A stretch of DNA of 64,000 nt from an uncultured Bdellovibrionales bacterium (GTDB lineage: Bacteria; Bdellovibrionota_G; JALEGL01; JAGRMV01): positions 2,533-66,532 of the forward strand of contig CAZCBX010000002.1 of assembly GCA_964497185.1 (NCBI GenBank). Reading direction: 5' to 3'. Both the position numbers and the translations under genes were made by a program. The notes under the pieces were generated by a model. The model did no database searches. It had not been told where the DNA came from and saw only the letters and a list, made by a program, of their open reading frames with translations. Shown here piece after piece: positions 38,069-61,718 of this stretch (position 1 is the first letter of the stretch; each line of letters begins with the position of its first letter).

Positions 38069-39330
38069 GCGAGCCACAGCGCATCGCTGTTGTTGGTTCA
38101 GGTATATCGGGTTTGCTTTCCGCCTACCTATGGAGTCAAAAAGCAGAAGTCACGCTCTATGAAGCTAGAAAAAGAATAGGGGGACACACCCATACCCACC
38201 CCATATCCATGGGCGGTCGAACCCATCCGGTGGATTCAGGTTTTATCGTGCTCAATGACCGTACGTATCCCACCCTTCACCGTTTTTTCAAAGTTCTGAA
38301 TGTATCCGTACAAGATGCCGAAATGTCTTTTTCTTTCTACCGGCAAGACCGCAACGCTTATTATGCGGGCAACAATCTAAATGGCTTGTTTGCCCAGCGC
38401 AGCAATCTCTTTTCGCCTCGGTTTTACTGTTTTCTATGGCATGTTTACCGGTTTGGCCATCAGGCTTTGGCAGATCTTGAAAAAGGGTTAGCTTTGGATG
38501 TCACACTCGGTGATTATTTAACGCGAATCAATGCCCATCCTCGTTTGGTGCAAGAATACATTTTGCCCATGGTGGCATCCATCTGGTCAGCGCCCGATCA
38601 GGTGTTGATGGCACATCCTGCCCATGCCATTTTATCGTTTATGAAACATCATGGTTTGCTCGACCTCACGGATCGTCCACAATGGCAAACCGTCGTGGGT
38701 GGCAGCGACCAATACATCAAAGCTTGTTTGGCCAATCGTCCGATCACCATTGTTTCAGATCAGCCCATTGAGCGTATTGCGCGCGCAGCGCATGGCGCCA
38801 TTGTCACTGGGCAAGATGGGGTTCAAGAAAGGTTTGACCGTGTCATTGTGGCTGTTCATGCCGATCAAGTGCTACCACTGCTTGACCAACCCCAACCTTG
38901 GGAAGAGGCTTTTTTTTCGACTTGGCGTTATGAAAAAAATGAAGTGCTAATTCATACTGATTCACGCTGGATGCCGCCGCATCGAAGAGCATGGGCTTCA
39001 TGGAATTATTTTCAAAGCCAAACACACCGTAAAAATAAATTGGTCATGACTTATTATATGAATTTGCTGCAGGGGCTGGATGCCCCCAAAGATATTTTTG
39101 TCACGTTGAATGCGCAAGATTTGATCGACCCGGAAAAAGTTCTTGAAGGTGTTTCGTACAAGCATCCAATTTTTTCAAGCACCTCACTCAAGGCAAGAGA
39201 ACTTTTTTTAACACGTCATCCTAAGCACGACTGCGTTCAATATGTTGGCGCTTACTTCGGATATGGCTTTCATGAAGATGGCGCACGTTCCGCACTGCGC
39301 ATAGGGGAAGAGCATGGACTTACCCTCTAG
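38065..39330 (+). CDS. NAD/FAD-binding amine-oxidase-like oxidoreductase.
   Basis: IAVVGSGISGLLSAY Rossmann dinucleotide motif. ATGA start/stop overlap with the upstream methyltransferase. Confidence 0.7.
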   Translation: MSEPQRIAVVGSGISGLLSAYLWSQKAEVTLYEARKRIGGHTHTHPISMGGRTHPVDSGFIVLNDRTYPTLHRFFKVLNVSVQDAEMSFSFYRQDRNAYYAGNNLNGLFAQRSNLFSPRFYCFLWHVYRFGHQALADLEKGLALDVTLGDYLTRINAHPRLVQEYILPMVASIWSAPDQVLMAHPAHAILSFMKHHGLLDLTDRPQWQTVVGGSDQYIKACLANRPITIVSDQPIERIARAAHGAIVTGQDGVQERFDRVIVAVHADQVLPLLDQPQPWEEAFFSTWRYEKNEVLIHTDSRWMPPHRRAWASWNYFQSQTHRKNKLVMTYYMNLLQGLDAPKDIFVTLNAQDLIDPEKVLEGVSYKHPIFSSTSLKARELFLTRHPKHDCVQYVGAYFGYGFHEDGARSALRIGEEHGLTL

Positions 39331-41242
39331 CCAATACCTCAGTGCCGACATCGTTCATCACCGTTTTTCCCCAACCAAACGTACATTTCGCTACAGGGGT
39401 CATTATCTGTGGTGTCACATCCATGAACTTGCGACATTGCCTAAAAAAGACCAGTGGTTTGGGTACAATCAGTCAAAGCTTTTTTCAGTCTGGGATAAAG
39501 ACTATCTTGACCCCGAGGCCAAAGGGTCCATCCAAGAAAAAATTTTTTCCTGGTACGAGCAAGAAGCTGTTGTGATTCCCGAAGATGTCTATTTATTCAC
39601 GTGTCCCAAGGTATTGGGGCACGTTTTTAATCCCGTTCATTTTTATTTTGGTGTGCGACAAGGCCACTTAGAAAACGTGGTGGTGGAAATCAACAACACG
39701 TTTGGTGAACGTCATATTTATACGGTGCCCGTGGATCAACCCCTCCACCAAAAAAGCTTTCATGTCTCGCCATTTTTACCGGTTGAGGGAACATACCGGT
39801 ATGACTTTACACTCAGCCCTGAAAAAATAGGGGTGGGCATTCATGTTGAGCAAAAAAAGCAAAAAATTTTCTTTGCATCGGTTCAAGGCAATTTTTCCAA
39901 TCATAGTCTGGCCGAATACCCTTTTTGGAAGCGGTTTTTGCCACTTTTAAATTATCCCAGAATTCTCTGGCAAGCTGCGCTCATTTTTTATAAACACAAA
40001 CTTCCTGTGTATACCAAACCACGACCGCAAAACAGACATACCGTCAAAAAAGCCACGCCCAATGCGTTTGAAAAACTGTGCATGGCCATGGTCGACCGCT
40101 TTTTTAAAAAGGCGCAGAAAGGCCGGCTTGAAGTATGGATGCCCGATGATTCTTTGCGGCATTACGGAGACGAACAGGCCAACGTCACCGCACGCATGGA
40201 AATTCATGCATATTCATTTTTTACAGCGGTCTTTTGGGGTGGGGACATTGCTTTTGGAGAACAGTACGAACAAAAATCATGGGATAGCCCTGACTTAATC
40301 AGCTTGTTGTCATGGTTTGCCATGAATCAAGATGTCATGGACGATCAAAAACTTTTTACTTCTTGGTTTGTACGAAAAATGACGTCCCTTCGCCATGCGC
40401 GTCGAAACAATACCTTGAGGGGGAGTCGAAAAAATATTTCTGCACATTACGACCTAAGCAATGACTTTTTTGAAAAAATACTGGATCCCCACATGCAATA
40501 CTCGAGTGCGCTGTATGAAAAGCCCAACATGACGTTGGCCCAAGCCCAGCAGTGCAAAATTGATCGAATTGTACAGCAACTGGCCGTGGACAAAGGCATG
40601 CATGTTTTGGAAGTGGGATCGGGCTGGGGTGGTTTGGCCATGGAAATTGCCCGACAAACAGGCTGCAACGTGACCACCATTACTCTTTCCAAAGAGCAAA
40701 AGAAATATGTGGAGGCACGCATTGCGCAGCAAGGCATGCAAAAACAATTGAATGTTGTCCTTCAAGACTATCGAAACATTCAAGAGGTGTATGATCGTGT
40801 GGTGTCGGTAGAAATGATTGAGGCAGTGGGCCGAGAGTTTTTGCCTTCTTATTTTCAAAAAATTTATGCATGTGTGAAGCCCGGTGGTCTGTTTGTTTTA
40901 CAAGGCATTACCATGGCTGAAGAAAAATACGATGTATACGCTTCCAAAGCAGACTGGATTCAAAAATACATTTTTCCTGGCTCTCACATTCCCACTCAGT
41001 CTATGGTGATGAACTTAGCTCAAGGCGCTGGGTGGCAACGATTGGCGCAAGCTGAGTTGGGACCATCATATGCAAAAACGCTTCATCAGTGGCATCAAAC
41101 CATGATGGCTAAGAAACAAGCGTTAACCGACATGGGCTTTGGCGAAAAAATATTGAGACGCTGGGCCTATTACTTTTCTTACTGTGAAGCCGGCTTTCGA
41201 CAAGAACATTTGCACGATTACCAATGGACGTTTCAAAAATGA
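39314..41242 (+). CDS. Fusion protein: N-terminal DUF1365 domain (about 250 aa) joined to a C-terminal cyclopropane-fatty-acyl-phospholipid-synthase-like methyltransferase (about 390 aa).
   Basis: Single uninterrupted 642-aa ORF. The C-terminal half carries the Cfa motifs ISAHYDLSNDFF, VLEVGSGWGG and RVVSVEMIEAVG. The N-terminal half has no methyltransferase motifs and matches the size of a DUF1365 domain. Confidence 0.65.
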   Translation: MDLPSSQYLSADIVHHRFSPTKRTFRYRGHYLWCHIHELATLPKKDQWFGYNQSKLFSVWDKDYLDPEAKGSIQEKIFSWYEQEAVVIPEDVYLFTCPKVLGHVFNPVHFYFGVRQGHLENVVVEINNTFGERHIYTVPVDQPLHQKSFHVSPFLPVEGTYRYDFTLSPEKIGVGIHVEQKKQKIFFASVQGNFSNHSLAEYPFWKRFLPLLNYPRILWQAALIFYKHKLPVYTKPRPQNRHTVKKATPNAFEKLCMAMVDRFFKKAQKGRLEVWMPDDSLRHYGDEQANVTARMEIHAYSFFTAVFWGGDIAFGEQYEQKSWDSPDLISLLSWFAMNQDVMDDQKLFTSWFVRKMTSLRHARRNNTLRGSRKNISAHYDLSNDFFEKILDPHMQYSSALYEKPNMTLAQAQQCKIDRIVQQLAVDKGMHVLEVGSGWGGLAMEIARQTGCNVTTITLSKEQKKYVEARIAQQGMQKQLNVVLQDYRNIQEVYDRVVSVEMIEAVGREFLPSYFQKIYACVKPGGLFVLQGITMAEEKYDVYASKADWIQKYIFPGSHIPTQSMVMNLAQGAGWQRLAQAELGPSYAKTLHQWHQTMMAKKQALTDMGFGEKILRRWAYYFSYCEAGFRQEHLHDYQWTFQK

Positions 41243-41706
41243 AAAAACTGCGTTTTTCATATCAAAGTTTGCTGTATGCGCCGGTGGAAGAAGTCTACGC
41301 ATGGCATATGGACCCGATGGCTTTTCAGATGTTGACGCCACCTTGGGAGAAAGTGGTGGTTAAAGAGCCATTGCAAACCATGCAGCCGGGTGAGACCATG
41401 ACGTTGGTGATGTACCCGCCTCCAGGAATTTTACCTATAAAATGGGTTGCGAAAATCGCGGAGGTTCAACACCAATCGTTATTTGTGGACGAGCAAATCA
41501 AGGGGCCATTTGCCTATTGGCGCCATTGCCATCGTTTTCACGAAGTGGAAAAAAATCGTTGCCGTGTAGAAGACGACATCGAATTTGAGCTGCCGCTGTC
41601 GTTTTTGTCCCATCGTACTATGGGCAGTTGGGTCACAAAAAAACTGATGAAAACATTTGAATATCGCCACCGCGTGTATGCTCAGGTTTTTCGGGAGTAC
41701 ATGTGA
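41224..41706 (+). CDS. SRPBCC (polyketide cyclase/START-like) lipid-binding protein.
   Basis: 160 aa with 19-nt coupling overlap. Size and pattern of SRPBCC proteins found in such lipid operons. Confidence 0.45.
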   Translation: MDVSKMKKLRFSYQSLLYAPVEEVYAWHMDPMAFQMLTPPWEKVVVKEPLQTMQPGETMTLVMYPPPGILPIKWVAKIAEVQHQSLFVDEQIKGPFAYWRHCHRFHEVEKNRCRVEDDIEFELPLSFLSHRTMGSWVTKKLMKTFEYRHRVYAQVFREYM

Positions 41707-42935
41707 ATCCCAAAGTGATCATTGTTGGAGCGGGGTTGGCTGGACTTTGCTGTGCACGGCATTTGCATCGTCGGGGTGTGGACGTTGTGCTGCTAGAGCA
41801 AAAGCAGGAGGTGGGCGGTCGATTGCAAACCACACAGCTTGATGGTTTTGTATTGGACCATGGCTTTCAAGTTTACAACACCGCGTATCCTGAAGGCCAG
41901 CAAGAACTCAATTACCAAGCTCTGGATTTCGGCTATTTTGACCCTGGCGCGTATATATTTATGGAAGGCCAGCGATACAATGTAGGAGACCCACTGCGGC
42001 AACCATCTACGCTGATTTCAACACTTCAAGCCCCCATCGGCAGCGTCAAAGATAAAATGCTGATGGCCAAGCTGAGCCTGTGGAGCCGTCAACTGTCTCA
42101 TGCGCAGCTGATGGCCATGCCCGTACAGACGACCTTATCCTTTCTTCGCGGTTATGGGTTTAGTTCCAAGATCATTGCCAATTTTTTTCAACCATTTTTT
42201 GGTGGGGTGTTTTTAGAAAAGTCACTTCATACGTCTCATCATCTTTTTTTGTATGTTTTTTCCATGCTGGCCAAAGGCAAAGCGGCCCTGCCCAAAAACG
42301 GCATGCAAGCCATTGCTCAACAACTTAGCCAGCATCTGCCAAACGATCAGCTATTGCTGGGACATACGGTAGAAAGCATCCAAGACGGTCGCGTGACATG
42401 TCAAAATGGCAAAACGATCAAAGCGCAACACATTGTCTTGGCCGTGGAGCAACACACCGCTCAAAAGCTTTTGGGTCAACCCCAAACACAAGCGTGGGTT
42501 GGAACCTACAACGCGTACTTTGAAGTGGACGCACTGCCCATCGAACACAAAAAAATCTGTTTGATGACGGATCGCCATCCATGGATCCAAAACATATGTT
42601 TTCCGTCGATGATTCAGCCATCTTACGCCCCCAAGGGGAGAAATTTAATGAGTGTCAGCGTCAATATCACACCAGAAGAAGACCGGTCTGGGTTGGCGCA
42701 GCGAATTGAACATGCCGTCATAGATCTTTTCGATCACGAGTGTGGCGCGATTCAAGCACTCGCCCAGTTTGAAGTACCTTACGCATTGCCATACCAAGAA
42801 CCTCAAACCCTGCTGCCATGGCAGCGTCCGCAGAACATTGATCAAGGGCTTTGGGTTTGTGGTGACTGGCTGGATCAAGGTTCGATTCAGGGTGCCATGG
42901 TGTCTGGGCGAAGAGTCGCGGAGCAACTTTGCTAG
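41703..42935 (+). CDS. FAD-dependent oxidoreductase (amine oxidase / phytoene-desaturase-like).
   Basis: VIIVGAGLAGLCCARHL...LLEQKQEVGGRL dinucleotide-binding motif; 410 aa. Confidence 0.7.
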   Translation: MNPKVIIVGAGLAGLCCARHLHRRGVDVVLLEQKQEVGGRLQTTQLDGFVLDHGFQVYNTAYPEGQQELNYQALDFGYFDPGAYIFMEGQRYNVGDPLRQPSTLISTLQAPIGSVKDKMLMAKLSLWSRQLSHAQLMAMPVQTTLSFLRGYGFSSKIIANFFQPFFGGVFLEKSLHTSHHLFLYVFSMLAKGKAALPKNGMQAIAQQLSQHLPNDQLLLGHTVESIQDGRVTCQNGKTIKAQHIVLAVEQHTAQKLLGQPQTQAWVGTYNAYFEVDALPIEHKKICLMTDRHPWIQNICFPSMIQPSYAPKGRNLMSVSVNITPEEDRSGLAQRIEHAVIDLFDHECGAIQALAQFEVPYALPYQEPQTLLPWQRPQNIDQGLWVCGDWLDQGSIQGAMVSGRRVAEQLC

Positions 42936-43976: not shown

Positions 43977-43996
43977 TTCCATGGTTTTCCATGGAA
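43977..43996. promoter_or_regulatory. Perfect palindrome TTCCATGG-tttt-CCATGGAA immediately upstream of the RHH antitoxin start; candidate autoregulatory operator.
   Basis: 8-4-8 perfect inverted repeat. Confidence 0.4.
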
Positions 43997-44016
43997 ATTT
44001 ATGGTATGCTAAAACC

Positions 44017-44223
44017 ATGAAAGAAGGAAACTTGGCAGTTGTACTGCCCATGGATTTAAAAAAAGCGGTTAGCAATCACTGCAAAGAACATGGGTTAAAG
44101 ATGAAAAAATTTGTTGAAGAAGCATTGATCGAAAAACTCGAAAACACAATGGATATTGCCTCTATTGCGGCACGTGAAAATGAAGAAACCATTCCTCTCA
44201 GTGAAGTACTCAAAAAACTATAA
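44017..44223 (+). CDS. Ribbon-helix-helix (CopG/ParD-like) antitoxin.
   Basis: MKEGNLAVVLPMDLKKAV beta-strand plus helix pattern. Overlaps the downstream toxin gene. Confidence 0.5.
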   Translation: MKEGNLAVVLPMDLKKAVSNHCKEHGLKMKKFVEEALIEKLENTMDIASIAARENEETIPLSEVLKKL

Positions 44224-44485
44224 AATCGAACTGAAAAAATCAGCCGCAAAAGAGCTGATCAAAATCCCCAAAACCTACCAACAACAAATTATTGATGGCT
44301 TAAAAGTACTGGAATCCAATCCAAACACACAAATCCTAGACATTAAAAAACTTCAGACCAAAGGAGACTTTTTCCGCCTCCGCATTGGATTATACCGAGT
44401 CATCTACGAAGTGCGTAAAAGCCAAGTTTTGATTTATGTGATCAAAATCGCTCACCGAAAAGAAGTCTACAAAAAACTCAAGTGA
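44180..44485 (+). CDS. RelE/ParE-family toxin.
   Basis: About 100 aa, Lys-rich, with a C-terminal RIGLYRVIYEV..VLIYVIKIAHRKEVY typical of the ParE/RelE fold. Paired with the upstream RHH gene. Confidence 0.55.
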   Translation: MKKPFLSVKYSKNYKIELKKSAAKELIKIPKTYQQQIIDGLKVLESNPNTQILDIKKLQTKGDFFRLRIGLYRVIYEVRKSQVLIYVIKIAHRKEVYKKLK

Positions 44486-44746: not shown

Positions 44747-45655
44747 TTAATCCAAATCCATTTTATCCACATTAAACCCCTTCAACGTCTCCGCAATCCC
44801 CTCAAAATCCTTATGAAAATCATTTTCACGCAGCTGCAACTGCGCATTAAAATTACCCGCTTTCAATTGTCGAATGTACCGACGAAGCGCCACCATGGGC
44901 CCTACAGAACGATGCGATAAAATAAGCGTAAAGAGAAAAAAGATAAAGCAGTACACGCTGACAATTAAAAATATGCCTAAAAAGAAATATTGATAAATAT
45001 GTTCTTGCACCTGAAGCTGAGGATCGACATAACTTTTTAAAAAACTATACGAAAACAGGGATAGGGTGGTGCATACCAACAGCACGGCAGACACATTCCA
45101 AAAAGCGAGTGTGAGTTGATAAGGCTTGTCAATCAAGTAGGTTTTACGATTGTTGTTTTCGTTCCATAGCTCGTCACCGTAGCTGTATATGCAAATGATG
45201 GTGATGATGGTGCCCGCCATAAGCTGCATGTCAGCAAGATTGAATGCATAGGATTTAAATGGACCCCAGGGTAGGTTGATAAAATCGCGGACAAAGCCCA
45301 ACAGAGTTTTGTCAATGACGTTGCCCATGATGCCCGCAACAAACACGGTTAGCCCCAGTTTCAACCAGTACACCCGTTTGTTTTGAAAAAAATACAAAAG
45401 CACAAAATACAGTGCCAGCGCATAGCCGCCCAGGGTGCTAAAAAAAACCACGCGGACCAATTCCCGAAACTGAGCGAACGATCCAAAGATTAAGCCAAAG
45501 TTTTTAACGGGTATAATTTGCAGCAAGCGACCACGAATGGGCTCTTCCAGATTGTAACCCCACTGCTTGGTGATTAAATCGAGACCGACCAAAAACGTTA
45601 ATAGGCCAACGGCCAAACCGAAGTGAAACCGTTTTTCTCGGCGTTCATGAGACAT
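44747..45655 (-). CDS. lspA: Lipoprotein signal peptidase II (LspA) fused to a C-terminal 2TM plus HAMP-like module.
   Basis: Residues 1-165 align with LspA (GNVIDK and FNLADM catalytic Asp motifs). Residues about 166-302 add two TM helices plus SHRSVGPMVALRRYIRQLKAGNF...NDFHKDFEGIAETLKGF, which matches a HAMP AS1-connector-AS2 pattern. Confidence 0.7.
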   Translation of the reverse strand: MSHERREKRFHFGLAVGLLTFLVGLDLITKQWGYNLEEPIRGRLLQIIPVKNFGLIFGSFAQFRELVRVVFFSTLGGYALALYFVLLYFFQNKRVYWLKLGLTVFVAGIMGNVIDKTLLGFVRDFINLPWGPFKSYAFNLADMQLMAGTIITIICIYSYGDELWNENNNRKTYLIDKPYQLTLAFWNVSAVLLVCTTLSLFSYSFLKSYVDPQLQVQEHIYQYFFLGIFLIVSVYCFIFFLFTLILSHRSVGPMVALRRYIRQLKAGNFNAQLQLRENDFHKDFEGIAETLKGFNVDKMDLD

Positions 45656-45666
45656 GCTCTATTGTA

Positions 45667-46932
45667 CTAGGCAATGAAGATGCTGGCAATGCACGCGGTC
45701 ATAAAACAAGCCAACGTTCCTCCGACCATCGAGATTAAGCCGAGTTTGGCCAGTTCTCTGCGGCGTTCTGGAACCAAAGCGCCAATGCCACCGACTTGAA
45801 TGGCAATGGAGCCAATGTTGGCAAAGCCACAAAGCGCATATGTAGAAATAATGGCAGATCGGCTGGATAACGTGGGCAATGCTTCTTTGAGATCGATGTA
45901 GGCCACAAATTCATTAAGCACCATTTTTTTGCCCAAAAAATTTCCTACTTGAATGCATTCATCCAAAGGCACGCCCATTAAAAAAGCAAAAGGAGAGAAT
46001 AAATAACCCATAATCAGCTCAAAGGTGAGATTGGGAAAACCCAGCCATGCACCCGCCCAACCGATAAAGCCATTGATGAACGCCACCAGCCCAATAAACG
46101 CGATCAGCATGGCGCATACGTTTAGCGCCAGTTTTAACCCATCTCCAGCACCCACCACAGCCGCATCAATCATGTTTTCAGCCGTTTTGGGAAAGCTGGT
46201 TTTGAGCGTACCTGCGGTCAGCGCTTCTTCTGTCTCAGGAATCAATATTTTTGCAATGGCCAAGGCGGCAGGGGCAGACATCACCGATGCGGCCAGCAAA
46301 TGACCTGCATCAATACCAAAGCCAGCATACGCTGCCAATACGCCTCCAGCCACAGTGGCCATGCCACCGGTCATAAGGGCCATCAGTTCGGAACGCGTCA
46401 TTGACGACAAGTAAGGAAACACCACCAGAGGGGCTTCGGTTTGGCCGGCAAAAATATTGGCTGCGGCAGCCAGCGATTCTGCACCCGATGTGCGCATGGT
46501 TTTCATCATGATGATGGCAAAAAATTTCACAATTTTTTCCATCAGGCCCACATGGTAAAGCACAGCCATCAGGGCACTGGTAAAAATAATGGTGGAGGGA
46601 ACAATCACGGCAAAAATAAAACCAAATTTGCCCATATCAGCCAAAGGCCCAAACAAGAACTGCGCACCATCGAGCGAAAAGTCCAAAATGGCTTGAACCC
46701 CTGATTTCAAACCCGAAAAAAGAGCTCGGCCCACGGTGGTTTTTAAAATTAAAAAACCAAAGACGAGTTGTGCCATAAGGCCGCCTAGAACAGTTCGCCA
46801 CGCAATGGCTTTTCGGTCACTGCTAAGCCCGTAAGCAATGCCAACCATAACAGCCAGGCCAAACATGGGAATGAGGATGCGCATGATGATCTCCTGAGAT
46901 AAGATTGCCATGGCATACCCAATACCGCGCAT
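45667..46932 (-). CDS. nupC: Concentrative nucleoside transporter (NupC/CNT family).
   Basis: 421 aa with the characteristic CNT N-terminal and C-terminal membrane domains. Confidence 0.75.
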   Translation of the reverse strand: MRGIGYAMAILSQEIIMRILIPMFGLAVMVGIAYGLSSDRKAIAWRTVLGGLMAQLVFGFLILKTTVGRALFSGLKSGVQAILDFSLDGAQFLFGPLADMGKFGFIFAVIVPSTIIFTSALMAVLYHVGLMEKIVKFFAIIMMKTMRTSGAESLAAAANIFAGQTEAPLVVFPYLSSMTRSELMALMTGGMATVAGGVLAAYAGFGIDAGHLLAASVMSAPAALAIAKILIPETEEALTAGTLKTSFPKTAENMIDAAVVGAGDGLKLALNVCAMLIAFIGLVAFINGFIGWAGAWLGFPNLTFELIMGYLFSPFAFLMGVPLDECIQVGNFLGKKMVLNEFVAYIDLKEALPTLSSRSAIISTYALCGFANIGSIAIQVGGIGALVPERRRELAKLGLISMVGGTLACFMTACIASIFIA

Positions 46933-46964: not shown

Positions 46965-48017
46965 TTACGGCTGCGTGGGCGGCTCATTGATGTGAACCAA
47001 CTGATTTGGGATGACGAGTAAGTCCTTTTCCATGGCTGTGATGGCCTCATCTAAACGCTGACTGATTTTTTTTGAGCCCCAGGCATTTTTTACAGAGGGA
47101 AACTGGATGTGCCACGCTTGCTTAACATTGCCCACTCGAATGACGGACGTTTCTGGGCTTTCTTTTTGAAGAAAAGAAATGATTTTTTGACTGGCTTCGA
47201 GCCAGTTTCGTTGCATGGGTGAAAAAGCTTGATCCTTGTCATAAGAAGCATGGTTGGACCAATAAAGCAGTGCAAGTTCGTGCTTATCATGGAAGCAAGC
47301 ATGCACCAAGCCGCAGAGGGTGACATCCGCACCATCTTTGAGTTGAACATCCATGACTTGTTGAACCGTGGTTTTCTCTTGGAGGGGATCGTAGAGCACC
47401 TCAGCGGTTGGATCAAAAAATTCAACCCCCGCGCGAAACGCCAGCTCCATTTTTTGCGCGCCCACACCATCTTCTGGGGTGATGATGCCTATGGTATGCG
47501 TTCGGCTTTTGCCCGCTGCGATGATTCCACTGATAAAAAGGGCCTGTGGAAGATTGAAATCGATGGAGACCACGTGGTTGGCTTGATCGAATGCATCTGC
47601 GACCAGCCATGTGGTGGAATGATTGAACGCATTGAGTTGTTTGAGCACGTTGGCATGTTCCAAACCGTCTATGATTACATAGGTAGGCCAGGTGGGTTCC
47701 TTTTGCAAGCGATCGAACAAACCCTGGCTATTGTCTAGGGACCAGACCGAAAACGAAAGCTGATGGTTTTGGGCCCATTTTTCAAGGGCTGTTTGGGCTT
47801 CTTTGGGCAGATTTTTTTGTAGTTGGGGATGCATCACCCAGACCATCGTTGCCGACATTTCTTTGGTGGGCATAGGGGTAGGTTGTTTTGCCGGTTGCGA
47901 CTCTGGTGCGGCGATGGTCTTGGGTGCGGTGGCGGCGCTTTGCTCTGAGGTTTCACATCCTGTCAAAGTCATCATGCCAAAAGCAGCGATCATCATGGCG
48001 TAGGTAAGGTGTTTCAT
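46965..48017 (-). CDS. Lipoprotein, possibly BMP-family (PnrA-like) nucleoside-binding protein.
   Basis: Lipobox MMTLTGC. The C-terminal half resembles BMP substrate-binding proteins. Lies upstream of nupC in the same orientation. Confidence 0.35.
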   Translation of the reverse strand: MKHLTYAMMIAAFGMMTLTGCETSEQSAATAPKTIAAPESQPAKQPTPMPTKEMSATMVWVMHPQLQKNLPKEAQTALEKWAQNHQLSFSVWSLDNSQGLFDRLQKEPTWPTYVIIDGLEHANVLKQLNAFNHSTTWLVADAFDQANHVVSIDFNLPQALFISGIIAAGKSRTHTIGIITPEDGVGAQKMELAFRAGVEFFDPTAEVLYDPLQEKTTVQQVMDVQLKDGADVTLCGLVHACFHDKHELALLYWSNHASYDKDQAFSPMQRNWLEASQKIISFLQKESPETSVIRVGNVKQAWHIQFPSVKNAWGSKKISQRLDEAITAMEKDLLVIPNQLVHINEPPTQP

Positions 48018-48156
48018 CCCATGAAGTATAAAAAATATGCACTGGATATCAATATTTTTCACGAAAAGGTGATTTGTTAAAATTGCATAAAGATGGCGTC
48101 AAAGCAGGTGAAAGAGTCTGTTTTTTTGTGATGAAATTCGGTACAAGAACAAGCAT

Positions 48157-48849
48157 ATGACAAAGCAAAAATATTGGGTGCTGGTGGTTGAAGATGACCC
48201 AGATCTGCTAGAAATTGTTAAAACCAATTTGGAAGAACTTGGCTACCAAGTTCTAGAGGCGATGGACGGTAGAAAAGCCTGTGAGTTGGCAGTTTCACAT
48301 CAACCCCATTTGATTTTGCTGGATATGATGTTGCCCAAAATGCAGGGCATGGAAGTTTTGCAATTTTTAAAACGCAATAACCAAACCGAGCACATTCCCA
48401 CCATCATTATTTCTGCCAAAGATGATGAAAACACGGTGGTTAAGGCGCTGGAAGAGGGTGCGGATGATTACATCACCAAACCCTGTGGGCCTCGTGAAAT
48501 GGTAGCGCGCATCAAAGCGGTGCTACGACGTCAAGCATCGGAAGAGGGCAGCAGCGAACAAATTAGGGTTTCAGGTGATTTGCGGGTGGATTTTCAAAAG
48601 CACGAAGTGCGCATGCAAGATGAAATTGTGGCCTTGACCAAAACCGAGTTTGATATTTTATGGTCATTTATGCGCGATCACAATCAAGTGTTTACACGCA
48701 AACAGCTTTTGCAAATTATTCATGGCCCTGGCGTCCATACTCTCGATCGAAACATTGATGTGCACGTTGTATCCTTGCGAAAGAAATTAAAGGACCATGG
48801 TCAGAAGATAGAAACCGTTCGCGGTGTTGGCTATCGCATGAATTTTTAA
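48157..48849 (+). CDS. phoB: OmpR/PhoB-family response regulator.
   Basis: REC domain plus a winged-helix C-terminus (VRGVGYRM). Followed by a histidine kinase and pstCAB-phoU. Confidence 0.75.
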   Translation: MTKQKYWVLVVEDDPDLLEIVKTNLEELGYQVLEAMDGRKACELAVSHQPHLILLDMMLPKMQGMEVLQFLKRNNQTEHIPTIIISAKDDENTVVKALEEGADDYITKPCGPREMVARIKAVLRRQASEEGSSEQIRVSGDLRVDFQKHEVRMQDEIVALTKTEFDILWSFMRDHNQVFTRKQLLQIIHGPGVHTLDRNIDVHVVSLRKKLKDHGQKIETVRGVGYRMNF

Positions 48850-50600
48850 TGACGCGCGTTCTTTTTCGTTCTCGGCTTTTTCGCAACTTGTTTGCCATGA
48901 TTGCGGTGCTTTTATTTTTGTCCAGCATGATGGTGGCAGGACTTTACTTTTTTACCTATCGACAGCAAATGTATGCTCAGGTCGAGCAGGACCTTAAACG
49001 TCAAATTCAAATATGGCATGTGATGCATGCGGGCGGACTCGCCGCGCGTGCAAAAACAAACCAGAGCCAACAAGCCATGGTGTTTGATCGCATGACCATC
49101 ATTGATAACCAAGGCAAAGTCTTGCTGGATACCAAAAAAGATCCAAATCAAATGGACAACCACGCGCTGCGGCCTGAAGTTTTGCAGGCAGGTCAAAAAA
49201 CCTGGGCCACTGCCAAACGATACAGCGATACAATGCAGGCACCCTCGCTCTATGTGGCACAGCAGATCCAAGAAAACGGTCAAACCTACACCATCCGAGC
49301 GGCGCGATCGATCAAAGCCATCAATGAAAAAGTGTATGCCCTGCTGGGCAGATTGGTGTTGGTGCAAATCGGGGTGCTCATTTTATCCATGATGTTTTTG
49401 TATTTCGTATTGCGTAGACCCCTGCATGACGTGGCCCACATTCAACACGTGGTGCAACGTTATCAACAGGGCGACTTGACTCCGAGGACCAACATTAAAT
49501 CTACGGGTGAAATCAAAGAACTGGCTTCCGGCATTGACTACATGGCAGATGCGGTACAACAGCGCATGGAGCATTTATCCAATTCGCAGCAGAAACTGCA
49601 TCAAATATTGGATTCGTTGCAAGATGGTCTGGTGATCATGAAAAACAATGCTGAAATTGAATGGTTTAATCGGGCTTTCCAAAACATCATGCAATTACCC
49701 AACTTGGCCAACCACCAAGTGCTGACCGAACAAGTGCGACATGCAGAGATTGTATCATTGATCAACGAGGTGGCCCATCATGGCAAGCCAGCCAAAACGG
49801 TATGCATGGTGGAGGAAGAAAAAACGCAATACTTGCTTTTTCACGCCTTTCCCATTGATTTGCAAACCACCCGCATGCTTGCTTTAAGCGTAACCGATAC
49901 CACCACAGCACACGCAACCAATCGAGCCAAGCATGAATTTATCGCCAATGCATCCCATCAATTAAAAACGCCTCTGGCTGCCATTCAAGGCTTTGCAGAA
50001 ACCATGATGGATTTGCCGCACCTCACCGAGTCAAAGCGGGCCAGCTATCTGCAAAAAATCATAGAGCGCAGCAAAGCTGCAACGGCCATGATTATTCGCT
50101 TGTTAACATTAACCAAAATCGAAGGCGGCGCTTCAGAATTGGACATCCGACCCGTTGATCTTCACACCTTTATCAACGAGGTGGTGGCCAGTCAGGAAGG
50201 GTTGGCTACGTCGTCACAAGTGCAGATCAACACAATGGTTAAGGGCGATGTGCTCGCGGTAGAGACCGATGATCGAATTTTGGACATTGCGGTGAGCAGT
50301 TTATTGGAAAATGCCATTGTTTATAGCCCTAGGGGAGGCGTCATTGAGCTCAAGGTTAAGCGTGAACATGATAAAATCTGCATCCAAATTGCGGATCAAG
50401 GCATTGGCTTTGATGCAGAACAAAAAAAACGTATTTTTGAACGTTTTTATCGCACACCTGAGGCGCAGAATGCACATCAGCAGGGTACTGGCATTGGACT
50501 TGCCCTGGTCCAGCAAGCAGTAGAGCGATTGGAAGGACAATTAAGCATTGAGAGTGAGAAAGGACAGGGCTCTGTTTTTGAAATACGATTTCCAGCATAA
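48849..50600 (+). CDS. phoR: Sensor histidine kinase (PhoR-like), with an unusually large periplasmic loop.
   Basis: 2 TM, HAMP, PAS, HisKA H-box ANASHQLKTPLAAIQGF, HATPase_c with N, G1 and G2 boxes. Confidence 0.7.
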   Translation: MTRVLFRSRLFRNLFAMIAVLLFLSSMMVAGLYFFTYRQQMYAQVEQDLKRQIQIWHVMHAGGLAARAKTNQSQQAMVFDRMTIIDNQGKVLLDTKKDPNQMDNHALRPEVLQAGQKTWATAKRYSDTMQAPSLYVAQQIQENGQTYTIRAARSIKAINEKVYALLGRLVLVQIGVLILSMMFLYFVLRRPLHDVAHIQHVVQRYQQGDLTPRTNIKSTGEIKELASGIDYMADAVQQRMEHLSNSQQKLHQILDSLQDGLVIMKNNAEIEWFNRAFQNIMQLPNLANHQVLTEQVRHAEIVSLINEVAHHGKPAKTVCMVEEEKTQYLLFHAFPIDLQTTRMLALSVTDTTTAHATNRAKHEFIANASHQLKTPLAAIQGFAETMMDLPHLTESKRASYLQKIIERSKAATAMIIRLLTLTKIEGGASELDIRPVDLHTFINEVVASQEGLATSSQVQINTMVKGDVLAVETDDRILDIAVSSLLENAIVYSPRGGVIELKVKREHDKICIQIADQGIGFDAEQKKRIFERFYRTPEAQNAHQQGTGIGLALVQQAVERLEGQLSIESEKGQGSVFEIRFPA

Positions 50601-50666
50601 TCATCGATTGATGAGACGACAAAATGTTTTACAAACCCGTCTTCAAAAGGTAGCTAGAGACTTCTC

Positions 50667-51551
50667 ATGAGATTTATTCGGCTCAAAGAGATACCCGTCC
50701 ATGCGTTTTTGTTTTTGTCGGCTTTTGTATCTATACTGACCACGCTTGGCATCGTCTTGGTGTTGCTCAAAGAAAGTCTCGCCTTTTTTGAAACGGTGCC
50801 GCTCACCGAATATTTGTTTGGAACCCAGTGGACGCCTTTGTTCAAACCTCAGCATTTCGGGTTTCTCCCGCTTTTGTGTGGCACATTGCTCATTGCAGTG
50901 GGGTCTGCCTTTGTGTCGATTCCTTTGGGGGTGCTTACCGCCACGTTTATGAGTGAATATGCCAGTGATCGCGTGCGCGGATGGATTAAACCACTGCTAG
51001 AAATTTTATCCGGTGTACCCACGGTCGTGTATGGCTACTTTGCGCTTACATTCATTACGCCCCTTTTGCGCACGGTTTTCCCTGAAACTGAAATCTTCAA
51101 CGCCGCCAGTGCAGCCATTGTGGTGGGCATCATGATCTTGCCCATGGTGGCTTCCATTAGCGATGATGCGATGCGATCTGTGCCCAATGCCCTTCGTTAT
51201 GCCGCTTATGCCTTGGGAGCAACCAAGTCGGAAGTTTCTACCAAGGTGGTATTCCCAGCCGCGCTATCCGGCGTGATTGCTTCCTTTGTGCTGGCGATTT
51301 CTCGGGCCATCGGCGAGACCATGGCGGTAACTTTGGCCGCAGGGGCAACACCCAACCTTACGCTCAATCCCTTGGAGAGCATTCAAACCATGACGTCTTA
51401 CATTGTGCAAATCAGTTTGGGGGACACCCCGCAAGGCACCATTGAATACCAAACGCTGTTTGTGATTGGGCTAACGTTGTTTGTGATCACCCTGGGTATG
51501 AACTTATGTTCAGACTATATTTTACGAAAGTATCGGCAAAAATATGATTAA
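50667..51551 (+). CDS. pstC: Phosphate ABC transporter permease PstC.
   Basis: 6 TM; EAA-like motif region ALGATKSEV. Confidence 0.85.
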
Positions 51552-52428
51552 AGGATTGGATCAGCAATACATCACGCGGTTAAAAAAGCGCAAACGAAGA
51601 GCAAAAATCTTTCACGGTTTGTGTTTTATGGCTTCCATGGTGGGCTTAATATTTTTGGGCGCTTTGTTTGTCTCCATCATTGGGGACGGATGGGCCTATT
51701 TGTCCTGGGACTTTTTAACCAACTTTCCTTCGCGGTTTGCCCATAAGGCGGGTATTCAGTCTGCACTGATGGGGTCCCTTTGGATGATTGGCTTAACGTG
51801 TTTGTTTGCCATTCCTTTGGGCATTGGAGCCAGTGTATTTTTGGAAGAGTTTGCGCCCAAAAACAAATGGATCAAAACGATTGAAATCAACATCTCCAAT
51901 TTGGCTGGCGTGCCTTCCATCGTCTATGGGCTGCTGGGACTGGCCATTTTTGTTCGCTGGTTTCAATTGGATCGCTCATTGCTGGCGGGGGCATTGACCA
52001 TGAGTTTGCTGATTTTACCCGTTATTATTATCGCTTCGCGTGAGGCCATTCGCACCGTACCCAATTCATTGCGTTACGCGGCTTTGGCTTTGGGTGCAAC
52101 CAAATGGCAAGTGGTCCAGGGCCATGTACTACCTGCGGCCATGCCTGGCATCATGACCGGTATTATTTTATCGGTCTCTCGTGCCATTGGTGAAACCGCG
52201 CCATTATTAATGGTGGGCGCATTGGGATATGTTGCCTACAACCCTCAAGGGCCCATGGATTCTTTTACCGTACTACCCATTCAAATTTTTAACTGGGCTT
52301 CACGTCCGCAACCCGAGTTTCATGCGCTGGCCGCATCCGGCATCATCGTGCTTTTGGTGGTGTTGCTCACCATGAACTCCATTGCTATTTTTCTTAGACA
52401 TCGATTTCAAAAAGGAAAAGTCAAATGA
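51544..52428 (+). CDS. pstA: Phosphate ABC transporter permease PstA.
   Basis: [10 protein letters not shown] motif; 294 aa. Confidence 0.85.
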
Positions 52429-53192: not shown

Positions 53193-53355
53193 AGGAGTAC
53201 GGGCTTCGAACGGAGGAAACCGCATAAATGGCACAGCTTTCCGCTTGCGCCTCAATCTGTGCTCATTTCTGCGATTTCGGTTATATGGAAATTTATAGGG
53301 ACTTAAGGATATCGACATTTTGACGTAAGGTAAAAAATAAGAGAGGAAAAAACGT

Positions 53356-61709: not shown

Positions 61710-61718
61710 TTCAAACAA

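What the first reader, a model, noticed from the sequence alone, without database searches (positions are those of the whole stretch)
44747..45655. Signal peptidase II (LspA) carrying a C-terminal 2TM-HAMP extension
Canonical LspA is about 160-170 aa with 4 TM helices. This ORF has an intact LspA core with both catalytic Asp motifs, then runs on for about 135 more residues. Those residues form two extra TM helices and a cytoplasmic segment with the HAMP heptad pattern (P-h-x-x-h...G-[ND]...D-[EF]-x-x-h-A-x-x-h). No output domain follows. A sensory or regulatory module on the lipoprotein-processing protease is unusual; I do not recognise this fusion from characterised systems. The gene ends the operon BMP-lipoprotein, nupC, lspA-HAMP.
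Basis: partly seen in the sequence, partly recalled or inferred. Interest (0 to 1): 0.7.

Follow-up and report, generated by a model that had tools for sequence, protein, structure and literature searches.

The report
LspA protease fused to 2TM-HAMP tail
The lipoprotein-processing protease LspA of a Bdellovibrio-type predatory bacterium carries a built-in membrane signal-relay (HAMP) tail with no domain behind it. The design is undescribed but found across the phylum, and transposon data already link the Bdellovibrio copy to predation fitness.

Summary
ORF 44747..45655 (minus strand, 302 aa) is one uninterrupted gene. Residues 1-160 form an LspA core (Pfam Peptidase_A8, 75.8 bits) whose predicted fold matches solved LspA structures. 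The catalytic Asp pair D124/D142 is conserved. A conserved cytoplasmic linker follows, then two extra TM helices joined by a ~17-residue loop, then a 49-residue HAMP-like domain. The protein ends 6 residues later.

Pfam HAMP itself is below threshold (14.1 bits). Homology is established indirectly. A profile of 95 such tails matches small proteins that are full-length Pfam HAMPs (40-43 bits), with hhalign probability 98% (E 2e-13).

The fusion is not an artefact. Core and tail share one ORF in all 88 fetched loci. At least 203 species genomes of Bdellovibrionota carry it, including B. bacteriovorus. The same 2TM-HAMP module also occurs unfused, twice in this window (61245..62249).

The B. bacteriovorus ortholog (Bd3246) has a strong predation-fitness defect in published Tn-seq. 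A second gene annotated "signal peptidase II" does not.

The mechanism is inferred: the HAMP probably dimerises or regulates an active, predation-relevant LspA paralog. This is a new variant of known kinds.

The parts
44747..45655 (-). Whole gene: LspA-2TM-HAMP fusion, 302 aa plus stop
   Evidence: ORF list and sequence. The identical protein P0001 lies on 3 metagenome contigs. It aligns end to end with 23 homologs.
45176..45655 (-). LspA (peptidase A8) core, residues 1-160: four TM helices plus a periplasmic beta-cradle
   Evidence: Pfam PF01252 scores 75.8 bits on residues 20-156. The AF2 model matches LspA structures 6RYO/6RYP/5DIR by Foldseek, E 6e-7 to 5e-5, TM-score (target) 0.68-0.78. 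phmmer hits PDB LspA chains.
45284..45286 (-). Codon of catalytic Asp124 (motif V-R-D-F)
   Evidence: Aligns to D124 of P. aeruginosa LspA (9emz_A/5dir_A). Invariant in A1 and at least 90% conserved in A5.
45230..45232 (-). Codon of catalytic Asp142 (motif F-N-L-A-D)
   Evidence: Aligns to D143 of P. aeruginosa LspA. Invariant in A1 and at least 90% conserved in A5.
45113..45181 (-). Cytoplasmic junction and N-terminal motif of the captured module, residues 159-181 (..W-x-E-N-x-x-R-K-x-x-L-I-[ND]-x-x-Y-Q..)
   Evidence: R170, I175 and Q180 are invariant in close homologs. Q180 is invariant and R170 at least 90% conserved in 113 members. The same motif opens free-standing module proteins (P0179 'RRKKYFVERGLQL'; window 61245 ORF 'NRRWIKFIDPKQQ') and is part of the hhalign matches.
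45044..45112 (-). Extra TM helix 5, residues 182-204, ending in the conserved F-S-Y-S-F motif at the periplasmic face
   Evidence: Hydropathy. AF2 helix 177-209. S204 and F205 are invariant in A1.
44993..45043 (-). Short periplasmic loop, residues 205-221 (about 17 aa); too short to hold a sensor domain
   Evidence: Hydropathy and AF2 secondary structure.
44915..44992 (-). Extra TM helix 6, residues 222-247, continuous with HAMP helix AS1
   Evidence: Hydropathy maximum 2.91. AF2 gives a single helix 217-265.
44768..44914 (-). HAMP-homologous domain, residues 248-296: S-H-R-x-x-G-P, AS1 253-266, connector 267-278, AS2 279-296
   Evidence: Direct Pfam HAMP score is only 14.1 bits (E 0.061). Indirect evidence: tail profile against P0176, 43 bits. 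P0176 is a Pfam HAMP at 43.4 bits covering 1-53/53. hhalign probability 98%, E 2.4e-13. BLASTP of the window tail against P0176 gives 36% identity, ungapped, sharing AGNFN. Heptad pattern. Foldseek's best hit for the tail model is the WalK TM-HAMP model 9a5d_A, probability 0.85.
44747..44767 (-). Six C-terminal residues (DKMDLD) and the stop codon; no output domain
   Evidence: Sequence. In 88 loci the median is 16 residues after the tail match and the maximum is 42.
45667..46932 (-). Upstream gene nupC (CNT-family nucleoside transporter), 11 bp from the fusion gene
   Evidence: Pfam Nucleos_tra2_N/Gate/Nucleos_tra2_C and TIGR00804 at 425 bits, just under its 442 cut-off. The linkage is kept in the P0005 loci but not in the P0012, P0024 or Bdellovibrio loci.
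46965..48062 (-). First gene of the putative operon: Bmp/PnrA-like substrate-binding lipoprotein (lipobox L-T-G-C); a probable LspA substrate by type
   Evidence: Pfam Bmp at 40.3 bits. The lipobox is read directly from the translation. JGI calls a 350-aa product.
61245..61709 (+). Free-standing paralog of the 2TM-HAMP module (154 aa), elsewhere in the same window
   Evidence: Tail HMM 34.4 bits, E 4e-10. hhalign against module alignment A3: probability 95.8%, E 6.8e-9 over 122 columns.
61719..62249 (+). Second, tandem free-standing paralog of the module (176 aa)
   Evidence: Tail HMM 37.3 bits, E 5e-11. hhalign probability 92.9%, E 3.6e-7 over the HAMP part.

Best explanation
The gene encodes a catalytically competent lipoprotein signal peptidase (aspartyl protease, dyad D124/D142). 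It belongs to a Bdellovibrionota-specific LspA subfamily. The C-terminus of this subfamily is a complete 2TM-HAMP module captured from a family of small free-standing inner-membrane proteins.

**Topology** (inferred from hydropathy, the positive-inside pattern and known LspA topology):
- The N-terminus and the LspA C-terminus are cytoplasmic.
- TM5 goes out, a 17-residue loop follows, and TM6 comes back in.
- The HAMP sits directly under the membrane.

**Mechanism** (inferred). HAMP domains fold as parallel homodimeric four-helix bundles, so the tail should hold two LspA protomers together. No domain follows the HAMP, so the only element it can act on in cis is the LspA/TM5-6 membrane part. 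The most likely role is to couple dimer state, or an intramembrane or envelope cue sensed by the near-loopless TM5-TM6 hairpin, to prolipoprotein cleavage. This would make a regulated LspA paralog that works beside a conventional one.

**Shown:** the architecture, the homologies, the conservation, the phylum-wide distribution, the unfused paralogs, and the predation-fitness defect of the B. bacteriovorus ortholog.

**Inferred:** dimerisation, direction of signalling, and the effect on catalysis.
For: **LspA core**
- Pfam 75.8 bits.
- The fold matches 6RYO/5DIR.
- The catalytic Asp pair aligns to PaLspA D124/D143.
- D26, K30, N52, G54, G108, N112, D115, D124, N139 and D142 are at least 90% conserved over 113 diverse members. 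This argues for a working enzyme rather than a relic.

**Tail is HAMP-homologous**
-.
- Free-standing family members hit the TM2-HAMP regions of the WalK, NarQ, MtrB, BaeS, EnvZ and Tar models.
- Heptad anatomy, with P at the AS1 start, G at the connector start and an acidic residue at the AS2 start.

**Real, selected fusion**
- The exhaustive search with the tail alone finds 266 clusters at E<=1e-10, nearly all about 270-320 aa with the module at about 150-295.
- 203 species genomes, all Bdellovibrionota apart from one contig labelled Bacillota.
- Core and tail are in one ORF in 88/88 loci.
- No conserved co-directional neighbour could serve as an output.

**Module exists on its own**
- P0179 is a complete gene. 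P0171 and P0172 lie on large contigs.
- Two copies occur in this window.

**Biology (PMC6561027, Data Sets S2 and S4)**
[quoted passage not shown] Its TetR-SLT-DacB-x-HflX synteny matches L070.
- Its fitness W is 0.013-0.20 in the full Tn-seq, against 0.9-2.8 for its neighbours.
- EP01_RS01995, annotated 'signal peptidase II', has W 1.2-2.6.
- A search for 'signal peptidase' finds no entry in the table of genes essential for axenic growth.

**HAMP is a dimeric four-helix bundle:** PMC3585426.
Against: - Direct Pfam HAMP is below threshold and covers only AS1.
- PDB sequence-profile searches find no HAMP.
- hhalign against a 14-sequence enterobacterial-type HAMP profile that I wrote from memory gives only P 0.035, though in the right register.
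- No dimer model could be made, and the AF2 monomer models have pLDDT of only about 67-81 in the tail.
- Nothing here shows any switching or any effect on catalysis.
- One mini-Tn-seq condition (V. cholerae planktonic, W 1.27) shows no defect.
- The length and domain content of the second Bdellovibrio 'signal peptidase II' were not seen.
- TIGR00077 (the lspA equivalog model) scores 42.6, under its 73.95 cut-off. The core is therefore a divergent LspA.
Confidence: 0.5

Rival explanations
1. Passive tail. The 2TM-HAMP extension is only a constitutive dimerisation, stability or localisation device for a housekeeping-type LspA. It has no switching or signal input.
For: There is no sensor domain (17-residue loop) and no output domain. 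No conserved partner gene is present. Af1503 is a precedent for a TM protein that ends in a HAMP and is called non-signalling (PMC3585426).
Against: The classic HAMP signalling positions (P253, G267, R276, D279, L284) and the pre-TM motif are conserved across members only 25-30% identical to the window protein. This exceeds what a simple dimeriser needs. In some lineages the same HAMP is followed by a Zn-ribbon plus SAM methyltransferase, the classic relay position. Members of the same module family live as independent proteins.
Confidence: 0.25
2. LspA as the input. The LspA/TM part senses prolipoprotein load, lipid state or an LspA-targeting antibiotic. The HAMP relays this inward to a partner encoded elsewhere, or to a fused methyltransferase in some lineages. 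The protein would be mainly a signalling receptor.
For: LspA-2TM-HAMP-Zn-ribbon-Methyltransf_23 proteins (P0118, P0140, P0150; each below 50% identity to the others) sit in the same dacB synteny as the short Bdellovibrio form. HAMP can relay in either direction: LapD signals inside-out to control a periplasmic protease (PMC4359373 abstract).
Against: Nearly all family members, including this one, end just after AS2 (lengths). No conserved neighbour was found. All catalytic and substrate-binding LspA residues are kept, as expected for an enzyme.
Confidence: 0.15
3. Not a HAMP. The tail is an unrelated amphipathic helical hairpin that only mimics the HAMP pattern.
Against: Members of the same module family pass Pfam HAMP at 40-43 bits with full coverage. 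They align to the tails at hhalign probability 96-98%. Register, motif spacing and heptads all fit. The window protein itself gives weak hits to the TM-HAMP stretch of the AdeS, PieS and ArsS models.
Confidence: 0.05
4. Artefact. A frameshift, assembly error or read-through joins lspA to a separate downstream gene.
For: None in this window. One long relative (P0077) does look like a read-through into the next gene.
Against: The identical protein lies on 3 independent contigs. There are 88/88 single-ORF fusions, including complete isolate genomes, and hundreds of clusters share the architecture.
Confidence: 0.01

Closest known systems
Canonical lipoprotein signal peptidase LspA (P. aeruginosa 5DIR/9EMZ, S. 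aureus 6RYO/6RYP)
   Same: Four-TM core and the same fold (Foldseek TM-score 0.68-0.78). It shares the catalytic Asp dyad and the DxxK, NxG, GNxxD[RK], VxDF and FNxAD motifs.
   Different: The canonical enzyme is about 155-190 aa and ends after TM4. This protein adds about 140 residues (linker, 2 TM, HAMP). Sequence identity is only about 24%, the score is below the TIGR00077 equivalog cut-off, and K116 replaces the usual Arg in GNxxDR in the window's clade.
B. bacteriovorus Bd3246 / EP01_RS01465 (Duncan et al. 2019, mBio, PMC6561027, supplementary tables only)
   Same: Ortholog of the same fusion family (L070/L075, about 33% identity to the query set; same TetR-SLT-DacB-x-HflX synteny). [quoted passage not shown]
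   Different: The gene neighbourhood differs (dacB rather than bmp-nupC). It is annotated 'hypothetical protein', is not found by searches of that paper's main text or in any searchable paper, and has not been characterised.
Af1503 of Archaeoglobus fulgidus (prototype HAMP structure)
   Same: A transmembrane protein whose cytoplasmic C-terminus is a HAMP with no output domain (PMC3585426). P-to-G spacing in AS1 is identical (14 residues; read from the alignment).
   Different: Af1503 has no enzymatic membrane domain. The connector here is 1-2 residues shorter. Homology to the enterobacterial/Af1503-type profile is only marginal (P 0.035).
Free-standing 2TM-HAMP small proteins (P0177, P0179, P0171, P0172; window 61245..61709 and 61719..62249); an unnamed family
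   Same: Same module from the N-terminal basic 'K-x-[FY]-[LFI]-[IV]-[ND]-P-x-x-Q' motif through two TM helices to the S-H-R-x-x-G-P HAMP.
   Different: These are not fused to LspA. Some pass the Pfam HAMP threshold (40-43 bits). Their function is unknown. In this window they lie among prepilin-type genes.
Sensor kinases with a TM-HAMP unit (WalK, NarQ, BaeS, MtrB) and the intramembrane-sensing kinases with near-loopless 2TM inputs (BceS/LiaS type; from general knowledge)
   Same: A 2TM hairpin is followed directly by a HAMP under the membrane. The best structural match of the tail model is the WalK TM-HAMP region. Family members hit these models' HAMP stretches.
   Different: There is no DHp/CA kinase, MCP, GGDEF or phosphatase output. 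The domain N-terminal to the hairpin is an enzyme, not a sensor domain.
LapD (HAMP-containing inside-out receptor controlling the periplasmic protease LapG; PMC4359373)
   Same: A precedent for a HAMP that governs proteolysis on the periplasmic side rather than a cytoplasmic output (abstract).
   Different: LapD has cytoplasmic GGDEF/EAL input domains and sequesters a separate protease. Here no cytoplasmic input exists and the protease is in the same polypeptide.

Membership tests
Peptidase A8 / signal peptidase II (LspA) | Match to Pfam PF01252 above the gathering score | tested here: met
   75.8 bits against a cut-off of 25, residues 20-156, profile 3-140/142.
Peptidase A8 / signal peptidase II (LspA) | Catalytic aspartate dyad (PaLspA D124 and D143) | tested here: met
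   D124 and D142 align to them. Both are invariant in 24 close homologs and at least 90% conserved in 113 diverse homologs.
Peptidase A8 / signal peptidase II (LspA) | Four-TM fold with a periplasmic beta-cradle | tested here: met
   AF2 model (pLDDT 79) against 6RYO/6RYP/5DIR: Foldseek E 6e-7 to 5e-5, probability 1.00, TM-score (target) 0.68-0.78.
Peptidase A8 / signal peptidase II (LspA) | Score above the curated equivalog model TIGR00077 (the housekeeping lspA) | tested here: not met
   42.6 bits against a cut-off of 73.95. The best NCBIfam LspA model, NF011360, gives 56.3 against 177. It is a divergent subfamily, filed as an LspA homolog and not as the equivalog.
Peptidase A8 / signal peptidase II (LspA) | Cleavage of diacylglyceryl-prolipoproteins; inhibition by globomycin or myxovirescin | not testable with these tools
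   This needs biochemistry or complementation.
HAMP domain (PF00672) | Match to Pfam PF00672 above the gathering score | tested here: not met
   14.1 bits, E 0.061, profile positions 2-33 of 53 only. 1 of 15 tails gives any hit. For comparison, the neighbouring kinase's true HAMP scores 23.9, also under 25.
HAMP domain (PF00672) | Homology to bona fide HAMP domains by profile methods | tested here: met
   Tail profile against P0176: 43 bits, E 1.1e-5 against 5.8e9 proteins. P0176, P0177 and P0179 score 43.4, 40.4 and 40.9 bits on Pfam HAMP with full coverage. hhalign probability is 98% (E 2.4e-13) and 96.4% (E 1.4e-9).
HAMP domain (PF00672) | Helix AS1 - connector - helix AS2 of about 50 residues with heptad a/d hydrophobics, Pro at the AS1 start, Gly at the connector start and an acidic residue at the AS2 start | tested here: met
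   P253 (93%), G267 (66%), D279 (100%). Hydrophobic columns at 254/257/261/264 and 281/284/288/291/295, and connector L273/L275. AF2 gives helix to 265, coil 266-282, helix 283-291.
HAMP domain (PF00672) | Position directly after a TM helix on the cytoplasmic side | tested here: met
   TM6 (222-247) runs straight into S-H-R-x-x-G-P. The cytoplasmic side is inferred from LspA topology and the positive-inside pattern.
HAMP domain (PF00672) | Parallel homodimeric four-helix bundle | not testable with these tools
   Only monomer prediction was available. Foldseek gave only weak hits: the WalK model at probability 0.85 and Aer2 poly-HAMP at E 9.7.
Two-component sensor kinase / chemoreceptor | An output module after the HAMP (HisKA+HATPase_c, MCPsignal, GGDEF and so on) | tested here: not met
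   No such Pfam hit. The protein ends 6 residues after AS2, and the median is 16 residues after the tail in 88 loci. It is not a member.
Free-standing 2TM-HAMP small-protein family (unnamed) | The whole module (N-terminal basic/Q motif, 2 TM, SHRxxGP HAMP) is alignable | tested here: met
   hhalign of A3 against P0179 covers 113 columns at probability 96.4%. Against window 61245..61706 it covers 122 columns at probability 95.8%.

The most novel reading that the evidence does not exclude
A HAMP-gated intramembrane protease. The HAMP four-helix bundle, driven by the near-loopless TM5-TM6 hairpin (membrane or envelope state) or by dimer rearrangement, would switch LspA on or off. Alternatively it would report LspA occupancy inward, as the methyltransferase-bearing variants suggest. 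Either way, predatory bacteria would have a regulated checkpoint in lipoprotein maturation during prey invasion. It would be the first HAMP known to have an enzyme's membrane domain on its input side and no conventional output.
Probability: 0.25. Interest if true: 0.8.

Novelty: new variant of a known kind. Interest (0 to 1): 0.6.

Why it matters
- **LspA is treated as unregulated.** It is an essential, minimal enzyme of the lipoprotein pathway and an antibiotic target. Globomycin acts on it (general knowledge), and so does the predator-made antibiotic myxovirescin (PMC6971385).
- **A fused relay module hints at control.** A whole phylum of predatory bacteria keeps an LspA paralog welded to a signal-relay module, which suggests that lipoprotein maturation can be controlled or organised at the protease step.
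- **It is experimentally tractable.** The published Tn-seq phenotype of Bd3246 gives an immediate handle: it is needed for predation fitness, while the conventionally annotated 'signal peptidase II' gene is not.
- **It is an odd case for HAMP biology.** The HAMP has no output domain and an enzyme upstream. Unfused paralogs in the same genome offer natural controls.
- **Annotation gap.** These proteins are currently named 'signal peptidase II' or 'hypothetical protein', with the tail unannotated.

Tried and rejected
1. **Direct Pfam HAMP on the tails.** Only the window's own tail gave a sub-threshold hit.
2. **HMM profiles of the tail against PDB sequences.** No HAMP was found, only coiled-coil noise.
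3. **A HAMP profile built from 14 sequences written from memory.** It passed a positive control (the window's PhoR-like kinase, E 6e-6). It gave only E 0.54 (HMMER) and P 0.035 (hhalign) for the tail, in the correct register. I treat this as a lead, not proof.
4. **Structure searches with the tail model.**
   - Foldseek/PDB: best hit the WalK TM-HAMP model, E 0.49.
   - afdb50: not available.
5. **Second lspA.** None in the window and none within about 6 kb of the fusion in 88 loci. The whole-genome question could not be computed. It was answered only through the B. bacteriovorus 109J Tn-seq table, which was truncated when stored.
6. **Conserved partner or output gene.** Neighbour clustering over 85 loci showed only lineage synteny (dacB/SLT in Bdellovibrionaceae). 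No co-directional partner was found.
7. **Genome scan with the broad alignment A5.** The scan was redone with the 22-sequence A6, so the count of 203 species applies to one motif variant only. The window's own HRSVGPMVAL would not match that pattern.
8. **Promoter and terminator scans around the operon.** Results were at chance level.
9. **Literature searches.** LspA+HAMP, Peptidase_A8+HAMP, Bdellovibrio+lspA and Bd3246 returned nothing describing the fusion.
10. **The word-indexed homology search with the tail profile.** It returned only 2 hits, but one of them (P0176) gave the decisive link to bona fide HAMP domains.
Full report
**1. The observation**

The ORF lies exactly at 44747..45655 on the minus strand (ATG start, 302 aa).
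- Pfam places Peptidase_A8 on residues 20-156 at 75.8 bits, against a cut-off of 25.
- NCBIfam gives only sub-threshold LspA matches (TIGR00077 42.6 against 73.95; best NF011360 56.3 against 177). The core is a real but divergent LspA.
- phmmer against PDB sequences aligns residues 91-154 to P. aeruginosa LspA. D124 (V-R-D-F) and D142 (F-N-L-A-D) fall on its D124 and D143. D115 in G-N-V-I-D-K is a conserved residue but not a catalytic one.
- An AlphaFold2 model built on 24 homologs (pLDDT 79) matches S. aureus and P. aeruginosa LspA structures by Foldseek (E 6e-7 to 5e-5, target TM-score 0.68-0.78).
- Hydropathy finds six TM segments: four in the LspA core plus 182-204 and 222-247. The model shows helices 177-209 and 217-265, a coil at 266-282 and a helix at 283-291.
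- The protein stops six residues after the last helix. The next genes are a convergent DUF6290/ParE pair.

**2. Not an artefact**

The identical protein occurs on three metagenome contigs. Twenty-three homologs at 30-65% identity align from end to end and stop at the same point.

An exhaustive HMMER search with the tail alone (residues 166-302, alignment A3) covered 1.84 billion cluster representatives.
- It found 3566 proteins at E<=1e-3 and 266 at E<=1e-10.
- Almost all of the best 150 are 270-320 aa with the module at about 150-295. That is the same architecture.

A genome scan used one tail motif, H[RK]xAGP[LI][YF]AF.
- It found relatives in 203 species genomes.
- The 80 listed loci include B. 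bacteriovorus strains kdesi and Bd5, Bdellovibrio sp. HCB-110, Peredibacter, Bacteriovorax and Halobacteriovorax. They also include Oligoflexia and Pseudobdellovibrionaceae MAGs.
- One short contig is labelled Bacillota.

In all 88 loci fetched, the LspA core and the tail are in one reading frame. A median of 16 residues follows the tail, with a maximum of 42.

**3. Is the tail a HAMP?**

Direct tests are weak.
- Pfam HAMP gives 14.1 bits (E 0.061) on the AS1 half only, and for only 1 of 15 tails.
- Two profile searches of PDB sequences found no HAMP.
- I wrote a 14-sequence HAMP profile from memory. It passed a positive control on the window's own kinase. For the tail it gave only P 0.035, although in the expected register.
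- The Pfam threshold is a poor judge here. The bona fide HAMP of the neighbouring kinase (48849..50600) also falls below it (23.9 bits).

The decisive evidence is indirect, through other members of the same module family.
- A profile of 95 diverse tails (A4) retrieved P0176 at 43 bits (E 1.1e-5 against 5.8 billion proteins).
- P0176 and its relatives P0177 and P0179 are full-length Pfam HAMPs: 43.4, 40.4 and 40.9 bits, profile positions 1-53 or 2-53 of 53.
- hhalign of A4 against P0176 gives probability 98% (E 2.4e-13) over 59 columns.
- The window's own tail aligns to P0176 without gaps at 36% identity. It shares S-H-R-x-x-G-P, A-G-N-F-N and L-R-x-x-D.
- P0172 is a free-standing protein among the best hits of the tail module (E 4e-14). 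It matches the HAMP stretches of the MtrB, WalK and BaeS models at E about 1e-6.

Column statistics over the 95 tails show the HAMP anatomy.
- P253 opens AS1, with hydrophobic positions at 254/257/261/264.
- G267 opens the connector, which carries L273 and L275.
- R276 and D279 are invariant.
- AS2 has hydrophobic positions at 281/284/288/291/295.

I conclude that the tail is a divergent but genuine HAMP homolog of an 'SHRxxGP' subtype.

**4. Where the module comes from**

The similarity to P0179 is not limited to the HAMP.
- hhalign of the whole module (A3) against P0179 covers 113 columns (probability 96.4%, E 1.4e-9). P0179 is a complete 137-aa gene lying between other genes.
- The match starts at the basic motif before TM5: window 'NRKTYLIDKPYQL', P0179 'RRKKYFVERGLQL'.
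- Other free-standing members (P0154, P0171, P0172) start with the same motif and sit on large contigs.

The window itself encodes two tandem free-standing copies, at 61245..61709 (154 aa) and 61719..62249 (176 aa).
- Tail HMM scores are 34.4 and 37.3 bits.
- hhalign probabilities are 95.8% over 122 columns and 92.9%.
- They lie among prepilin-type genes.

The fusion therefore joins LspA, just after TM4, to a pre-existing small 2TM-HAMP membrane protein. The F-S-Y-S-F motif at the outer end of TM5 also appears in free members (F-Y-T-T-F in P0179). It is therefore a property of the module and not an adaptation to LspA (read).

**5. Context**

In the window the gene is last in a tight co-directional row.
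- The row is Bmp-type lipoprotein (lipobox L-T-G-C), nupC, then the lspA fusion, with gaps of 32 and 11 bp.
- It is divergent from a PhoB/PhoR-like two-component pair followed by pstC-pstA-pstB-phoU-type genes.
- Co-transcription is inferred. Promoter and terminator scans are at chance level.

The nupC linkage persists in a 57%-identical relative. It is absent at 53% and 33% identity. In Bdellovibrionaceae the gene lies divergent to a PBP4/DacB gene and a lytic transglycosylase. Clustering the neighbours of 85 loci found no conserved co-directional partner that could act as an output.

**6. Link to experiments**

The supplementary tables of a Tn-seq study in a host-independent B. bacteriovorus 109J mutant (PMC6561027) list EP01_RS01465, which is Bd3246.
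- NCBI calls it 'hypothetical protein' and RAST calls it 'Lipoprotein signal peptidase'.
- Its neighbours are a TetR regulator, a murein transglycosylase, a D-Ala-D-Ala carboxypeptidase and, further on, HflX. This is the gene order found around the fusion in L070, so Bd3246 is the ortholog.

| Tn-seq fitness W | V. cholerae planktonic | V. cholerae biofilm | E. coli planktonic | E. coli biofilm |
|---|---|---|---|---|
| Bd3246, full screen | 0.187 | 0.191 | 0.013 | 0.202 |
| Bd3246, mini screen | 1.27 | 0.26 | 0.0095 | 0.018 |

- Neighbouring genes score 0.9-2.8 in the full screen.
- A second gene, EP01_RS01995, is annotated 'signal peptidase II' and shows no defect (W 1.2-2.6).
- A search for 'signal peptidase' finds no entry in the table of genes essential for axenic growth.
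- Searches of that paper's main text for the gene found nothing. No searchable paper describes an LspA-HAMP fusion.

**7. Variants**

- **Longer forms with a possible output.** Three clusters of about 630-aa proteins (P0118, P0140, P0150) continue after the HAMP into a four-Cys motif and a class I SAM methyltransferase (Methyltransf_23). P0140 sits in the same dacB synteny as the short Bdellovibrio form and occurs on four contigs.
- **Two long forms in one MAG.** The MAG with locus prefix RJB66 carries two different long forms.
- **A likely read-through.** P0077 continues into a sequence resembling the gene downstream of the L009 fusion, so it is probably a read-through artefact.

**8. Interpretation**

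*What is shown.*
- The protein is an LspA homolog with every catalytic and conserved substrate-site residue intact.
- It is fused to a complete 2TM-HAMP module and has no output domain.
- The design is conserved across Bdellovibrionota.
- Unfused paralogs of the module exist in the same genome.
- The Bdellovibrio ortholog has a predation-fitness phenotype.

*What is inferred.*
- HAMP domains function as parallel homodimeric four-helix bundles (PMC3585426). The tail should therefore dimerise the enzyme beneath the membrane.
- With a 17-residue outer loop and nothing downstream, the only cis target is the membrane part itself.
- I therefore favour a regulated or organised LspA paralog (confidence about 0.5). 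The alternatives are a purely passive dimeriser (0.25) and a receptor that uses LspA as its input (0.15).
- Af1503 is a precedent for an output-less HAMP on a TM protein. LapD is a precedent for a HAMP that controls periplasmic proteolysis (PMC4359373).

**9. Verdict**

It is not a one-off. It is an unannotated, uncharacterised and phylum-wide domain architecture, a new variant built from two well-known parts, with a ready experimental handle in Bdellovibrio. Interest 0.6.

Noticed in passing
window 61245..61709 (+) and 61719..62249 (+): Two tandem small ORFs (154 and 176 aa) carry the same 2TM plus SHRxxGP HAMP-like module as the LspA tail, unfused. They lie among prepilin-type (N_methyl/GspH-like) genes at 60476..61123, 62282..63187 and 63413..63997. 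Pfam and NCBIfam give them no name.
   Followed up: partly
L090 5001..6941 (P0140); also P0150 and P0118/P0181: Relatives of about 630 aa extend the LspA-2TM-HAMP protein with a four-Cys motif and a Methyltransf_23 SAM methyltransferase. They keep the same dacB/SLT synteny as the short Bdellovibrio form. This gives a classic input-HAMP-output layout with LspA on the input side.
   Followed up: partly
proteins P0181 (MEY4615641.1) and P0174 (MEY4616860.1): One MAG (locus prefix RJB66) encodes two different long LspA-2TM-HAMP paralogs. One ends in a methyltransferase. The other has a long low-complexity region and a Peptidase_S74 chaperone domain.
   Followed up: no
protein P0077/P0173 (658 aa); compare L009 6898..8052: After the HAMP this protein continues into a sequence resembling the gene found downstream of the fusion in L009. 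That sequence has a signal-peptide-like start and a C-x-x-C-H motif. This is probably a read-through or frameshift join and not a true domain fusion.
   Followed up: partly
window 43981..44485 (+): A DUF6290 antitoxin and a ParE-family toxin form a pair that converges on the 3' end of the lspA fusion gene.
   Followed up: no
window 48157..54018 (+): A winged-helix response regulator and an sCache-HAMP-PAS histidine kinase lie divergent from the bmp-nupC-lspA row. Two BPD_transp_1 permeases, an ABC ATPase and PhoU follow, so this looks like a pho regulon block. The same pst/phoU genes lie near nupC-lspA in the L005 relative.
   Followed up: partly
window 48849..50600 (+), residues 195-238: The kinase's bona fide HAMP scores only 23.9 bits on Pfam HAMP, under the 25-bit gathering score. 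The threshold misses real HAMPs in this genome.
   Followed up: yes
window 140..6367 (+): A 2075-aa protein made of 14 DUF11 repeats, with an IgGFc_binding-like C-terminal domain. It is probably a large surface or adhesin protein.
   Followed up: no
window 37022..42935 (+): A row of flavin amine-oxidase-like genes, a DUF1365-cyclopropane fatty-acyl synthase (CMAS) fusion of 642 aa and an SRPBCC/polyketide-cyclase-like protein. This is a lipid-modification cluster just upstream of the region studied.
   Followed up: no
window 45661..45689 (-): A promoter-like pair of hexamers (TTGCCA-17-TACAAT, 10/12) sits inside the end of nupC, just upstream of the lspA fusion start. The number of such sites in the region is at chance level.
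   Followed up: no
protein P0019 (211 aa, MEZ4820697.1) against cluster member P0183 (276 aa): A close relative (62% identity) on a 41-kb contig is truncated just after TM5. It may be a pseudogene, a frameshift or a naturally tail-less form.
   Followed up: no
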